From NCBI GenBank assembly GCA_000165345.1, contig CM000435.1, positions 192,001-256,000 of the forward strand: 64,000 nucleotides of DNA, in the 5' to 3' direction. Position numbers and translations under genes: made by a program. This document shows positions 52,613 to 64,000 of this stretch, in pieces (the first letter of the stretch is position 1; each line of letters starts with the position of its first letter). A model generated the notes under the pieces. That model did no database searches. It was not told the origin of the DNA and saw only the letters and a program-made list of their open reading frames with translations.

Positions 52613-55600
52613 TTATATTCCAAAAAGTGAAATATGGTGATTATTGGAAATATGATTCTTCTTGTTAGAAATTTGTGGGATTAAATATGAGCAGTTAATT
52701 ACTTGAGGGATTGAATTATGTTGTTGTTTATTACCCTCGATTGTTTTATTATCTTCAAAGTTATTATTATTTAAATAATGAACTGCAATTTCAGAGTATG
52801 CAATATCAAGCCAGAAAAGTCTTGAAAATAAGACATTTCTATCCAAAATTTCACGATAATTGAGAACATTTGCAATCTTTTCATCAGCAGGAACATAAAG
52901 TTTGTTATATATTTGAATAAATTCATCTTTGTTTACAAATGATCCAGAAATGTTTGCATGTTCAGAGTATGAATGATTTTTAAGATTAACAACAGCTCCA
53001 AGCACTTGAAGATTTGAGGTAAGACAAAATGAAACCGGATGAATTATTGTATTTGAATTTTTATTTTCTGAGATTTTTTGTCCAATTGTTGGTTTTTGCT
53101 GTAAAGATCCAATGCAAGGAAGACTTCTATAATTAACTATTCTACACCAGTGAACAGGAATACATCTGATTGTATTAATTGAAGGAACTTCATCTCCTTT
53201 TGTTACAATTACTCCAAGAGATACAAATTGGTTTGATGGAGGAATTGGTTTCCATATTGTAAATATTCCAGTTTCCATATTTGTATTTGGAATTAAGAGC
53301 GATCCTTTGAATATTGGTTTAAATTTCTTTGGATGAGGGAAAACTATGCTGACAAATTTTTTCAATTCTGAGCTTTCTGACATACTTGAAGAATTATGGT
53401 CAGTTATTTCAAGTATTTGTGATTGGAAATTTCCACTACTATTATTACTACTATTTATAGTAAAATCATAGTTTCCACTTCCATATTGTCCAAGGCATAT
53501 TCTTTCTCTATTCTTTTTCATAACACCTCTATATTTTCCTTCCAGTTGCTCTGGATTCCAAATGGTTATTACTCCAGGTATTTCAAAGACTTTATGGAAA
53601 TTACTATGAAGATTTAATTTGCATTTTAACTTTGAAAGAAATATTGGATCAAAATATTGTATTCCTAATCCATCAATTCCTCCAAATCCATTATTATAAG
53701 AATCTCTATAAATATTCATATTATGTTTAAGTTTACTTTCAGCTTGATTAATCATGGAATCATCTATTTTTGGTAAAGAAGGTAAACAACTTGTGTTATT
53801 AATTGACGAATTATTATTATAATAGTTTTTATGGGTATAGAAAGCTCTCATAAAGTTTTCTTGAGAAATTGAAATATGATGTAAAGAATTTAAATCATTT
53901 GCAAGATCTGGTAAATTATTTCCAAAAACAAAATGTATAATTCTTGAATAATCTAAAGGATTTGGAGCTATTTGAAGTGATTCCAATGAAGCATATAAAT
54001 GAATTGATGATATTGATCCTGTTTGGTTCTTGTCTAATAATTTGAATAAATCAAGAATGGTCATATTAAATTTATTCAATTTAGAGGACAATCTACTGGC
54101 TAATCCTCTACATTGTAAAATGGCTGATTCATTTGGTGTTGTGAAAATTATGGATAAAAGATTGTTATTATCTAATAAATTGGTTTCATTTTCTTTTTTA
54201 TTACGTCTTCTACATTTCTTAATATCCATATAAAAGTCTTTTCTAAGTTTACAGTGGTTATTTTGAAGAGTTCTAACAACAGTACTAATTTCTTGTTTTG
54301 TGAAATTACTTTCAGAGTTTACAAATTTATATATTGATTGGGCTTGTAATTCTAATAAATTAATCTTTTCAATATTATTTTCTTGCTTCACTTTTTCGAG
54401 AAAATCTATTGGAATATTATTATTATTGTCAAATTGTGAATAAGGTTTTGAAAATGAAGAAATTATATAGTTATTAATTTCATCAAGTAAAAGAAGAGTA
54501 TTGGAGAGATGGTATATTTTAATACTGAAGAATTGATTATTAATTTTTTGATTTAAAGTTTTTCTAAGGATTTCTCCATCATCAGTATCTGAACAAATTC
54601 TGTGAATAATCCATCTAATTGATTGAGCTTCTTCTAAGGTTACACCAATATAACATTTATTTGAGCTAGTATTCAACACAGAATTCATTACTTGGTATAA
54701 TTCTTCAAAGTCAATATTAATCTTTTTCTCTTCTTCTTGTAAGTAACTACTTTCTAATATTAATTCACTGGAATCCATTTCAATAAGTTGGTTATCATTC
54801 ATATTATTAGATTTTTCCCAAGGATGATCATTAATGAAGTCTAAAAGTTCTTCATCTTTTTCAATCCTAATTTTATTATTGGTATTGGTATTATTATTAT
54901 CATTTAATTCATTTTCAACGCTAAGTAAGTTATTTACAGTTTTAATTGATGATTTATCATTCCCATTTGGAACAAGAGTGGTATTATTATTATTATTATT
55001 ATCTTGATTTTTGATTTTTGATTTAATCTTAAGTCTGAGACACTTGAGAATTTCTTTCTCAAATAAGTTCACATTTTCTACCCAATTAAGAGTTTTAAGA
55101 AGATCAGGAATATCATCCAAATTGATTTTTCCTGTTGAATCACCATCAAAAACTGCAAATGCTTCTTTAAGTTGAATAAGATAATCTCTAGGAAGGTGGT
55201 TATTATTATTGGAAGATTTGAAATTTTCCCATTCTATGATTATATTAAAGTTATTAAGTCTTTGTTGCAAGTTTGAGTTGTTGGAATAATTTCTTGCAAT
55301 ACTTGGATTATAAAGATTTGTTGTAAATCTGAGATGATTTGGAAAATCTATGCAATTATTACTTGTTGTATTTGAACTTATTACATAATATTCACTAAGA
55401 GGAAGAAATATATTTTCAAGATTTGGACAAGTAATAGTTGAAGCTTGACGATTAATTCCTCCTCCACTTCCTTTTGAAGTTGTAAAGAAAGCAAATGGTG
55501 CAAAATCCTCTATTTTCTTCCTTCCTATATTGTTGTTACTACTGTTATTGTGGGTAGAACAACTTGAAGTTTGTTTTATTCCAGTTCCAGTTCCAGTTCC

Positions 55601-64000: not shown

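What the first reader, a model, noticed from the sequence alone, without database searches (positions are those of the whole stretch)
52613..64000. Giant (over 3,794 aa, N-terminus off-window) protein combining a P-loop/helicase-motif core, an EF-hand loop and multiple Gly-rich repeat arrays
This is the largest gene in the window. It contains Walker A (GAGKTT), Walker B (VVIVDEIDMIL) and a motif-VI-like QGAYRMRQLGQGQ. That combination suggests a DUF3638/DUF3645-like NTPase module of unknown function. It also has a canonical EF-hand loop (DGDSTGKINLDD) and at least five in-frame (GGN)n-type arrays encoding GPGSGVGVG. Such arrays are prone to length polymorphism and could be isolate-typing markers. 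The function is unknown.
Basis: partly seen in the sequence, partly recalled or inferred. Interest (0 to 1): 0.65.

Follow-up and report, generated by a model that had tools for sequence, protein, structure and literature searches.

The report
Giant helicase-like calcium-sensing protein gene

Summary
Window 52613-64000 (-) is one open frame of 3,795 codons running off the window edge (chance about 1e-150). All four quoted motifs sit where stated.

Pfam places it in DUF3638 (83.8 bits) and DUF3645 (50 bits), with one EF-hand (33.3 bits). The window is Cryptosporidium. The C. meleagridis counterpart is an uninterrupted 5,236-codon ORF, and window residue 1 aligns to its residue 1668, so about 1,670 N-terminal residues lie off-window.

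Full-length relatives of 4,000-7,100 aa occur in other Cryptosporidium species, Toxoplasma, Babesia, Entosiphon, Bigelowiella, Paulinella and Diplonema. Most of those scanned share one layout: about 2,500-3,100 unannotated but conserved residues, then DUF3638, DUF3645 and an EF-hand.

The Gly-rich arrays are species-specific insertions that model as disordered.

Verdict: a genuine but ordinary member of a catalogued family of unknown function.

The parts
52613..64000 (-). C-terminal 3,795 codons plus stop (52613-52615) of one gene of about 5,400 codons; the N-terminal ~1,670 codons lie beyond base 64000
   Evidence: open frame, codon-position bias; the C. meleagridis ORF L001:227-15937 is 5,236 aa, and window aa 1 aligns to its aa 1668 at 82% identity; dN/dS 0.12 overall.
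63392..63961 (-). Family-conserved N-terminal block, aa 14-203, modelled as strand-rich (R76, W86, E110, P112, R113 and H154 conserved)
62285..62935 (-). Most conserved N-terminal block, aa 356-572: a strand pair followed by a helical bundle. Nearly invariant residues are W366, H381, S383, R461, Y512, C523, R524 and E530.
   Evidence: most of the 506 hits align to about aa 350-470. (residue counts; C460 is only 43/64). (pLDDT mostly above 90, with dips at aa 420-430 and 470-500). (dN/dS 0.044).
61166..61498 (-). Family-conserved helical block, aa 835-945
59906..60328 (-). Family-conserved block just upstream of the ATPase, aa 1225-1365
   Evidence: aligned in more than 25 homologues. (dN/dS 0.049 for aa 1218-1420).
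60350..60640 (-). Largest Gly-rich array, aa 1121-1217 (GPGSGVGVG-type, 40 Gly in 97 aa). 76 of these residues are absent from C. meleagridis.
   Evidence: periods 6, 18, 24 and 30..
63284..63400 (-). Gly-rich segment, aa 201-239
   Evidence: (aa 209-349 have pLDDT below 50).
62936..63073 (-). Gly-rich segment, aa 310-355
59786..59911 (-). Poly-Gly segment, aa 1364-1405 ((GGA)n on the coding strand). A 14-aa insertion relative to C. meleagridis.
   Evidence: period 3, 14.3 copies..
58958..59047 (-). Gly/Lys-rich segment, aa 1652-1681, inside a long helical hairpin of RecA lobe 1
   Evidence: (low pLDDT).
58028..58144 (-). Gly-rich array, aa 1953-1991, containing the second GPGSGVGVG. An 18-aa insertion relative to C. 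meleagridis.
   Evidence: period 24.. (core residues 540-583 have pLDDT below 50).
55580..55639 (-). Short Gly/Thr array, aa 2788-2807
58721..59713 (-). First part of RecA-like lobe 1, aa 1430-1760. It includes Pfam DUF3638 (59219-59632), motif I / Walker A GAGKTT (59483-59500), motif Ia (59399-59434) and motif II / Walker B DEID (within 58772-58804).
   Evidence: (strand/helix alternation, pLDDT 85-95). (SF2 matches). (motifs invariant across supergroups).
57092..58720 (-). Mainly helical insertion of about 540 aa between motifs II and III, aa 1761-2303. It includes Pfam DUF3645 (57620-57715; conserved PF.GKD.PS.ASEFSHPDV.IGLT).
   Evidence: consensus. (order of secondary-structure elements).
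56999..57019 (-). Motif III-like GFSGTPS, aa 2328-2334, which completes lobe 1
   Evidence: nine of ten aligned full-length relatives; Bigelowiella has GFSGTTS. Assigning it to motif III is my inference from its resemblance to the TGTP-type motif III of Snf2, SecA and type I restriction ATPases.
56360..57091 (-). RecA-like lobe 2, aa 2304-2547, with motif V-like SIGQDI (family consensus TTGMDI) and motif VI QGAYRMRQLGQGQ (56483-56521)
   Evidence: (96-99% identity to C. meleagridis). (dN/dS 0.043).
55721..56278 (-). Family-conserved region after the ATPase, aa 2575-2760
   Evidence: aligned in most homologues that extend past motif VI.
55088..55174 (-). EF-hand 1, aa 2943-2971; loop DGDSTGKINLDD at 55112-55147
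   Evidence: EF-hand_6 at 33.3-37.9 bits, cut-off 25. (conserved in C. meleagridis and C. canis; position 3 is Lys in C. serpentis).
53999..54034 (-). EF-hand-like loop 2, DKNQTGSISSIH, aa 3323-3334. Position 12 is His rather than Glu/Asp. This loop aligns with the EF-hand pair of distant relatives.
   Evidence: EF-hand_5, E 0.43 only. (aligned with the Bigelowiella, Entosiphon and ENA EF-hand regions)..
53156..53569 (-). Possible Vps62/DUF946-like module, aa 3478-3615, with two W-x-P motifs (ITIWNPEQLEG; FTIWKPIPPSNQFVSLG)
   Evidence: Sub-threshold PF06101 hits fall on the same profile region in five orthologues: 16.6, 15.4, 18.2, 16.1 and 19.7 bits against a cut-off of 22.1.

Best explanation
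The feature is one protein-coding gene of a Cryptosporidium species. The window holds its last 3,795 codons. The whole protein is about 5,400 aa, has no strongly hydrophobic segment that could span a membrane, and so is probably soluble.

It is the Cryptosporidium orthologue of a giant protein family found across distant eukaryotic groups, which Pfam records only as DUF3638 + DUF3645.

**Shown:**
- The conserved heart is a divergent SF2 (helicase/translocase-type) ATPase. It has two RecA-like lobes with intact Walker A, Walker B (DEID), motif III-like GFSGTPS and an arginine-bearing motif VI.
- About 540 mostly helical residues, including the DUF3645 motif, lie between motifs II and III.
- Nearly the entire chain on either side is conserved and under purifying selection.
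- The Gly- and Asn-rich arrays are species-specific insertions that model as disordered.

**Inferred:**
- The protein works as an ATP-driven motor. ATP binds and is hydrolysed in the cleft between the two lobes, which moves them relative to each other.
- The inserted domain acts as a substrate clamp. The same site carries the Arch domain in XPD/DinG and the preprotein-binding domain in SecA.
- The huge N-terminal region supplies partner or substrate binding.
- The EF-hand region about 450 residues downstream of motif VI couples activity or targeting to calcium.

The substrate, whether nucleic acid or protein, is not determined.
For: **Single gene.**
- Open frame and codon bias.
- Uninterrupted 5,236-codon orthologous ORF, collinear at 82% identity.
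- dN/dS is 0.12 overall and 0.04-0.06 in the conserved blocks.
- Single full-length proteins or transcripts in C. canis, C. serpentis, Babesia, Entosiphon, Bigelowiella, Paulinella and Diplonema.

**Family.**
- Pfam DUF3638 and DUF3645 score above their cut-offs.
- 155 homologues at E<=1e-3, the listed ones at E 1e-68 or better for the core.
- 506 hits for the N-terminal 1,130 aa.
- The same domain order recurs in distant lineages.

**ATPase fold.**
- AlphaFold model with pTM 0.70 and pLDDT mostly 80-97 in the modelled lobes.
- Motifs I, II, III and VI are nearly invariant from Apicomplexa to Euglenozoa and Rhizaria.

**Calcium.**
- EF-hand_6 scores above its cut-off.
- EF-hands sit at the corresponding place in Babesia, Entosiphon, Bigelowiella and an ENA metagenome protein.

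**Other.**
- No hydrophobic 19-residue window reaches Kyte-Doolittle 2.0.
- The arrays are insertions with low pLDDT.
Against: - No biochemical or genetic data exist for any family member in the searchable literature. A 2025 paper states that the mechanism of DUF3638 is undefined (PMC12615304).
- The closest solved structures are remote. Sequence identity is 9-18% and no PDB relative is found by sequence profile. The subfamily, and hence the substrate class, cannot be read off.
- The EF-hand position shared with distant relatives has lost its position-12 acidic residue in Cryptosporidium. The canonical loop has Thr at position 5 and no recognisable partner hand, so calcium binding is not assured.
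- The role of the insertion as a clamp is by analogy only. I could not inspect the model's coordinates.
Confidence: 0.6

Rival explanations
1. It is a deubiquitinase, as the automatic UniRef/UniProt name 'ubiquitinyl hydrolase 1' given to its orthologues implies. A cysteine-protease domain somewhere in the giant chain would cleave ubiquitin, and the ATPase would serve as an accessory.
For: - UniRef names the C. canis, T. gondii, Babesia duncani and a diatom homologue 'ubiquitinyl hydrolase 1'.
- Some family members carry domains that can bind ubiquitin or belong to the ubiquitin system. These are RanBP/NZF zinc ribbons (P0092, P0095, Bigelowiella P0232), UBA (P0120) and PF16558, which I recall as the AZUL domain (P0083).
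- A nearly invariant His381 / Cys523 pair exists in the N-terminal block.
Against: - No deubiquitinase or peptidase Pfam family matches the window protein at E<=1. The same holds for its fragments at E<=10 and for the full C. meleagridis ORF at E<=0.1. None matches the Toxoplasma, Babesia, Entosiphon or Bigelowiella proteins, or two metagenome-derived full-length relatives (P0262, P0238), at E<=0.01.
- Cys460 of the most conserved motif is replaced in a third of homologues.
- The name is machine-assigned. To my recollection it follows a PANTHER family that also holds OTU enzymes, which is not an experimental basis.
- The VTD deubiquitinase family I first suspected is unrelated.
Confidence: 0.08
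2. The motor acts on polypeptides or ubiquitin-marked protein complexes rather than on nucleic acid, in the manner of SecA. The domain inserted after motif II would bind a protein substrate.
For: - From my knowledge of SecA, its preprotein-binding domain is inserted between the DEVD Walker B strand and the GMTGTA motif III. That is the topology seen here (DEID ... GFSGTPS).
- All accessory domains found in the family are of the protein- or ligand-binding kind: EF-hand, WW, SH3, UBA, NZF, Jacalin, thioredoxin and Vps62-like. None binds nucleic acid specifically.
Against: - XPD/DinG also carry an insertion between motifs II and III.
- There is no significant sequence similarity to SecA in a profile search of the PDB.
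Confidence: 0.15
3. The ATPase is a catalytically dead relic and the protein is only a giant scaffold.
For: - Babesia has GEGKTT instead of GAGKTT.
- Long disordered insertions interrupt both lobes.
Against: - The Walker A Lys-Thr, the Walker B Asp-Glu, motif III and both motif VI arginines are conserved in every full-length relative aligned.
- They are invariant or nearly so in alignments of 20-63 sequences.
- Lobe 2 is 96-99% identical to C. meleagridis, with dN/dS 0.043.
Confidence: 0.05
4. The long ORF is an artefact: several genes fused in frame, or non-coding low-complexity sequence.
For: The GenBank annotation of C. meleagridis calls only the last 1,978 aa as a gene. The low-complexity stretches are not conserved.
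Against: - The chance of such an open frame is about 1e-150, and the codon-position bias is strong.
- Purifying selection acts along the whole length, even in the low-complexity parts (dN/dS 0.33).
- Homology to single full-length proteins and transcripts of distant species is collinear.
Confidence: 0.02

Closest known systems
Pfam DUF3638 (PF12340) / DUF3645 (PF12359) giant proteins. GenBank annotates them as 'EF hand domain-containing protein' or 'EF hand family protein' in C. canis, C. serpentis, C. ryanae, C. meleagridis, Toxoplasma gondii and Babesia duncani.
   Same: - Both Pfam domains score above their cut-offs.
- The domain order is the same: a long conserved N-terminal region, DUF3638, DUF3645, then an EF-hand. 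Babesia and Cryptosporidium add a weak Vps62-like C-terminus.
- Alignment is collinear over nearly the full length.
- Identity is 82% to C. meleagridis, and 70% to C. canis over the N-terminal part.
   Different: - Gly-, Asn- and Thr-rich arrays specific to this species add about 280 residues to the ATPase core alone (993 aa against about 710 aa between Walker A and motif VI).
- The EF-hand shared across the family is degenerate here, and an extra canonical loop lies about 370 residues upstream of it.
Superfamily 2 helicases/translocases: Snf2-type (ALC1, CSB, Rad54, CHD4), DinG/XPD, Hef, RIG-I, UvrB, Brr2
   Same: - Two RecA-like lobes with motifs I, Ia, II, III, V and VI in the canonical order.
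- As in XPD/DinG, an accessory domain is inserted between motifs II and III.
   Different: - Sequence identity is only 9-18%.
- The match to Pfam DEAD is below its cut-off (12.7 bits against 26).
- No solved relative is detectable by sequence profile.
- No Fe-S cluster cysteines, chromodomains, or recognisable RNA- or DNA-binding accessory domains were found.
- The insertion (about 540 aa here, about 260 aa in relatives) and the N-terminal region of about 3,000 aa have no counterpart.
SecA preprotein translocase motor
   Different: There is no significant sequence similarity. The protein has no signal for membrane or translocon association. It is a eukaryotic cytosolic or nuclear giant protein, not a bacterial or plastid secretion factor.
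EF-hand calcium sensors (calmodulin/centrin type)
   Same: One helix-loop-helix with a 12-residue loop, which by my inspection fits the PROSITE EF-hand pattern as I recall it. Pfam EF-hand_6 and EF-hand_1 match.
   Different: It is a single recognisable canonical hand embedded in a 5,400-aa chain. The second hand lies 370 residues away and lacks the position-12 acidic ligand. There is no four-hand globular module.
Vps62 / DUF946 (PF06101)
   Same: Two W-x-P...G motifs at the C-terminus. The same profile region (positions about 34-156) is hit in five orthologues.
   Different: Every hit is below the curated cut-off (15.4-19.7 bits against 22.1), and only about a quarter of the 541-position profile is covered.

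Membership tests
Pfam DUF3638/DUF3645 giant protein family | DUF3638 (P-loop region) match above the curated cut-off | tested here: met
   83.8 bits against a cut-off of 31, E 1.5e-23, aa 1457-1594
Pfam DUF3638/DUF3645 giant protein family | DUF3645 motif downstream of DUF3638, above the cut-off | tested here: met
   50 bits against a cut-off of 25, E 1.8e-13, aa 2096-2127
Pfam DUF3638/DUF3645 giant protein family | Collinear homology outside the two Pfam domains to full-length members | tested here: met
   N-terminal blocks at aa 50-205, 355-555, 835-945 and 1225-1365, and a block after the ATPase at aa 2575-2760, align to many members
Superfamily 2 helicase/translocase ATPases | Two tandem RecA-like lobes | tested here: met
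Superfamily 2 helicase/translocase ATPases | Conserved motifs I (GxGKT), II (DExx), III and VI (Q/HxxGRxxR-like) in order | tested here: met
   GAGKTT, DEID, GFSGTPS and QGAYRMRQLG are present and nearly invariant across lineages
Superfamily 2 helicase/translocase ATPases | Nucleic-acid-dependent ATPase, unwinding or translocation activity | not testable with these tools
   Requires biochemistry
DEAD/DEAH-box helicases (Pfam PF00270) | Match to the DEAD profile above the cut-off | tested here: not met
   12.7 bits (window) and 15.2 bits (C. meleagridis) against a cut-off of 26
EF-hand calcium-binding proteins | Helix-loop-helix profile match above the cut-off | tested here: met
   EF-hand_6 at 33.3 bits (cut-off 25) in the whole protein. 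On the fragment, EF-hand_6 scores 37.9 bits and EF-hand_1 33.7 bits.
EF-hand calcium-binding proteins | Loop ligands at positions 1, 3, 5 and 12 (D-x-[DNS]-x-[DENSTG]-...-[DE]) | tested here: met
   DGDSTGKINLDD followed by I fits the PROSITE pattern as I recall it (direct inspection). The second loop, DKNQTGSISSIH, fails at position 12.
EF-hand calcium-binding proteins | Paired hands and measured calcium binding | tested here: inconclusive
   EF-hand_7 (pair) scores 24.7-26.2 bits against a cut-off of 30. No clear partner hand lies next to loop 1. Binding itself cannot be tested here.
Deubiquitinases ('ubiquitinyl hydrolase 1', EC 3.4.19.12) | A recognisable deubiquitinase catalytic domain (USP, UCH, OTU, Josephin, MINDY, ZUFSP, VTD, JAMM) | tested here: not met
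   No such Pfam match in the window protein, its fragments, the full C. meleagridis ORF or six distant full-length relatives. No protease fold in the model of aa 1-1130. The off-window N-terminal 1,670 aa were tested by Pfam only.
Deubiquitinases ('ubiquitinyl hydrolase 1', EC 3.4.19.12) | Invariant catalytic Cys/His (or a metal site) and isopeptidase activity | tested here: inconclusive
   H381 (63/64) and C523 (58/62) are nearly invariant, but they lie in a fold with no protease match. C460 is variable. Activity cannot be tested here.
Vps62/DUF946 (PF06101) | Profile match above the curated cut-off | tested here: inconclusive
   Below the cut-off in all five orthologues (15.4-19.7 bits against 22.1), but always the only or best hit and always on the same profile region

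The most novel reading that the evidence does not exclude
The roughly 3,000-residue N-terminal region is conserved in lineages as far apart as Apicomplexa, Rhizaria and Euglenozoa. Its most conserved block (aa 356-572: W366, H381, S383, R461, Y512, C523, R524, E530) matches no solved fold. This region could harbour a new type of enzyme or ubiquitin-system module driven by the SF2 motor and gated by calcium. If so, the family would be an unrecognised, widely distributed giant molecular machine that model yeasts and animals appear to lack.
Probability: 0.12. Interest if true: 0.75.

Novelty: new member of a known kind. Interest (0 to 1): 0.38.

Why it matters
**Why it is of limited interest as a discovery.** The family is catalogued in Pfam, and orthologues with the same domain combination are already deposited for several Cryptosporidium species, Toxoplasma and Babesia.

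**Why it is still a worthwhile 'known unknown'.**
- It is one of the largest proteins of a medically important parasite and is under purifying selection along its whole length.
- It has a catalytically intact helicase-type motor and a calcium motif.
- It belongs to a family spread across distant eukaryotic lineages for which the searchable literature holds no functional study.
- The analysis flags that the databases' 'ubiquitinyl hydrolase 1' label has no support in the domains or folds I could test.

**Practical points.**
- The C. meleagridis gene model covers only the last 1,978 of 5,236 codons and should probably be extended.
- The Gly arrays differ in length between species, so they are candidate length markers. 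Variation between isolates remains to be shown.

Tried and rejected
- **VTD deubiquitinases.** I suspected from memory that the family was linked to the herpesvirus-tegument-like (VTD) deubiquitinases. The paper (PMC9741609) mentions no P-loop, ATPase or giant proteins, and mentions helicase only for Helitron transposons, so I dropped the idea.
- **Homologue searches with C-terminal queries.** The C-terminal 1,236 aa found only the C. meleagridis orthologue. The last 356 aa found nothing. Low-complexity words probably swamped the word index.
- **Sequence-profile search of the PDB with the core alignment.** Nothing significant; the best hits were E 0.36 (guanylate kinase) and E 1.6 (RecQ P-loop).
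- **Existing typing markers.** I tested whether the Gly arrays coincide with established C. parvum MLVA markers. Primers for cgd8_4840 (MM19), cgd6_4290 (MSC6-5), cgd8_4440, cgd5_4490 and cgd4_2350, taken from PMC9043402, do not match the window at up to 3 mismatches.
- **Literature.** Searches for DUF3638, DUF3645, DUF6606, the Pfam and InterPro accessions and PTHR13367 gave only incidental listings and no functional work.
- **DUF6606.** I recalled this domain from fungal members. It was not found in the C. meleagridis N-terminus or in the other full-length relatives scanned.
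Full report

Yes. The minus strand of 52613-64000 is open for 3,795 sense codons up to the window edge. The TTG 'start' at 63997 only marks the edge. With the local base composition a stop is expected every 11.5 codons, so an open frame of this length has a chance of about 1e-150. The three codon positions differ strongly in composition, with GC at the third position only 14%.

It is the largest ORF in the window; the next largest is 2,776 aa.

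There are seven Gly-rich segments. Tandem Repeats Finder finds arrays whose periods are all multiples of three. The literal peptide GPGSGVGVG occurs twice rather than five times.

**2. Where does it come from and how long is it?**

- The window has about 30% G+C and is densely packed with long intron-free ORFs. Its other ORFs encode ordinary eukaryotic proteins: a Syf1 splicing factor, a NatA auxiliary subunit, a Patched/sterol-sensing protein, an ankyrin protein and a 2OG-Fe(II) oxygenase.
- The best database match of the ATPase region is a Cryptosporidium meleagridis 'EF-hand calcium-binding domain-containing protein', at 81% identity.
- On its 1.3-Mb contig the same neighbours follow in the same order.
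- The C. meleagridis reading frame is uninterrupted for 5,236 codons (L001:227-15937), although only the last 1,978 are annotated as a gene.
- Window residue 1 aligns to residue 1668 of that ORF, at 82% identity over 3,826 columns. The complete protein of the window species is therefore about 5,400 aa, and about 1,670 N-terminal residues are off-window.
- Nei-Gojobori dN/dS against C. meleagridis is 0.12 overall, 0.04-0.06 in the conserved blocks and 0.33 even in the low-complexity parts. The whole frame is coding and constrained.
- No 19-residue window reaches a Kyte-Doolittle mean of 2.0, in either the window protein or the C. meleagridis one. This argues for a soluble protein.

**3. What family?**

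- The ATPase region has 155 homologues at E<=1e-3. The 120 listed range from E 0 to about 1e-67.
- An exhaustive HMMER search with window aa 1-1130 finds 506 proteins.
- Full-length relatives include C. canis (5,227 aa), C. serpentis (5,234 aa), Toxoplasma gondii (gene models up to 4,365 aa), Babesia duncani (4,420 aa), Entosiphon (4,668 aa), Bigelowiella (4,073 aa), Paulinella (7,115 aa) and Diplonema (4,518 aa).
- Pfam scans of six of these show the same order each time: 2,500-3,900 residues without any Pfam domain, then DUF3638. In five of the six DUF3645 follows; the Toxoplasma model stops short of it. In Babesia, Entosiphon, Bigelowiella and an ENA metagenome protein an EF-hand follows about 900-1,000 residues further on.
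- The N-terminal region is truly homologous across the family. An alignment of 13 full-length N-termini has 218 columns conserved in at least 11 sequences, spread over the whole length.
- The blocks at window aa 50-205, 355-555, 835-945 and 1225-1365 align to many members.
- So this is an old, widely distributed giant protein, not a Cryptosporidium peculiarity. The literature library holds only incidental mentions of the two DUFs. A 2025 paper states that the mechanism is undefined.

**4. The ATPase core**

- An AlphaFold2 model of aa 1420-2560, built with a 63-sequence alignment, has pTM 0.70. pLDDT is 85-97 in the conserved parts and below 50 exactly at the species-specific insertions.
- Foldseek gives only weak hits, again all SF2. 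A sequence profile finds no solved relative. The fold is therefore established, but the subfamily is not.
- In ten full-length relatives from several eukaryotic supergroups the catalytic residues of all four motifs are conserved. These motifs are the Walker A (G[AES]GKT[TS]), the Walker B (DE[IV]D, followed by the family signature LHPL[KR]SEL.[FW]P), GFSGT[PT]S, and [AS]QGA[FYW]RMR..G.GQ.
- The order of secondary-structure elements shows that the strands carrying motif III (core residues 885-911) come about 540 residues after the Walker B strand (313-317). The intervening part is mainly helical and includes DUF3645.
- From general knowledge, an accessory domain at this position is a feature of XPD/DinG (Arch domain) and SecA (preprotein-binding domain). 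Both are among the top hits. That the insertion acts as a substrate clamp is my inference.
- The core measures 993 aa here against about 710 aa in typical members. The excess is low-complexity sequence.

**5. EF-hands and the C-terminus**

- By my inspection, the loop DGDSTGKINLDD plus the following Ile fits the PROSITE EF-hand pattern as I recall it. It passes EF-hand_6 and EF-hand_1.
- It is conserved in C. meleagridis and C. canis, but position 3 is Lys in C. serpentis.
- A second EF-like loop, DKNQTGSISSIH (aa 3323-3334), aligns with the EF-hand pairs of Bigelowiella, Entosiphon and the ENA protein. It has His at position 12, the key bidentate position; C. serpentis has Gln there. Calcium regulation is therefore plausible but not assured.
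- The last 450 residues are 93-96% identical to C. meleagridis.
- They give a sub-threshold match to the same part of the Vps62/DUF946 profile in five orthologues: 15.4-19.7 bits against a cut-off of 22.1. This is a consistent hint, not a membership.

**6. The N-terminal region in the window**

- A model of aa 1-1130 (pTM 0.60) has a confident strand-rich part (aa 14-203 plus 356-380) and a helical bundle (392-572).
- The nearly invariant residues are W366, H381, S383, R461, Y512, C523, R524 and E530. The Cys of the striking D.HPDAHACRLK motif is replaced in a third of sequences.

**7. The 'ubiquitinyl hydrolase 1' label**

- UniRef attaches this name to several orthologues.
- I found no deubiquitinase or peptidase domain by Pfam in the window protein, in the full C. 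meleagridis ORF or in six distant relatives.
- I found no protease fold in the part I could model.
- The only link to ubiquitin is indirect. A few family members carry NZF/RanBP zinc ribbons, UBA or PF16558 (which I recall as the AZUL domain).
- I treat the label as unsupported. It is not excluded for the unmodelled parts.

**8. The repeat arrays**

- Aligned with C. meleagridis, the window protein has insertions of 76 aa (aa 1136-1211), 14 aa (poly-Gly, 1379), 18 aa (1962) and 8 aa (2801). Several Asn- and Thr-rich insertions are also present.
- They coincide with low-confidence loops of the models.
- They are thus fast-evolving linkers. Whether they vary among isolates was not testable.
- They are not among the five established C. 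parvum MLVA loci whose primers I could check.

**9. Mechanism, stated with its limits**

*Shown:*
- A single, constrained gene.
- Membership of the DUF3638/DUF3645 family.
- An SF2 two-lobe ATPase fold with intact catalytic motifs.
- A large insertion between motifs II and III.
- One canonical EF-hand loop.

*Inferred:*
- ATP hydrolysis drives lobe closure that moves or remodels a bound polymer.
- The inserted domain and the giant N-terminal region hold the substrate or partners.
- Calcium modulates the machine.

*Unknown:* the substrate. I put nucleic-acid-type action ahead of SecA-like protein handling only because nearly all SF2 enzymes work on nucleic acids. The accessory domains seen in the family point the other way.

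**10. Verdict**

The feature is a real member of a catalogued family of unknown function, with already-deposited orthologues. Its novelty is low and its interest moderate. It is a good target for experiment but not a surprise.

Noticed in passing
window 52613-64000 versus L001 (C. meleagridis), and window 42467-52612: Divergence from C. meleagridis changes sharply inside the gene. Nucleotide identity is 82-84% over 58.6-64.0 kb and 87-88% over 54.6-57.5 kb. It rises to 94-95% over the 3' 2 kb, and the downstream genes are mostly 93-96%. Synonymous divergence is 0.57-0.89 in the 5' blocks against 0.14-0.15 at the 3' end, while dN/dS stays low. Possible causes are a recombination or introgression boundary, or locally raised mutation.
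   Followed up: partly
L001:227-15937 (C. meleagridis GCA_039657295.1, CM077713.1): The deposited gene model covers only the last 1,978 codons of an uninterrupted 5,236-codon ORF that is homologous along its whole length to 5,227-5,234-aa proteins of C. canis and C. serpentis. The model is probably truncated.
   Followed up: yes
window 51551-52612 (+) and 52613-52615 (-): A 353-aa 2OG-Fe(II) oxygenase (AlkB-like; PF13532, E 6e-17) converges on the giant gene with no spacer: its stop codon ends at 52612 and the giant gene's stop codon starts at 52613. C. meleagridis has the same arrangement.
   Followed up: partly
window 8731-17061 (+): A second very long ORF (2,776 aa) has no Pfam match at E<=0.001. 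It lies in the most A+T-rich part of the window, at 22-26% G+C.
   Followed up: no
window 44830-49512 (-): A 1,560-aa ankyrin-repeat protein has a sub-threshold SET-domain match (21.3 bits, cut-off 22.4). One 1-kb stretch (44.6-45.6 kb) is only 81% identical to C. meleagridis amid flanks of 93-96%.
   Followed up: no
window 58914-59255 (+): A 113-aa ORF lies antisense to the ATPase-coding part of the giant gene. It is most likely a chance frame opposite a constrained coding region.
   Followed up: no
homologues P0003-P0072: Many metagenome proteins of about 1,100 aa consist of just the DUF3638-DUF3645 core plus about 310 conserved residues after motif VI, and they score E about 1e-170 against the Cryptosporidium core. 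Whether these are true short forms or exon or gene-call fragments of giant eukaryotic genes was not determined.
   Followed up: no
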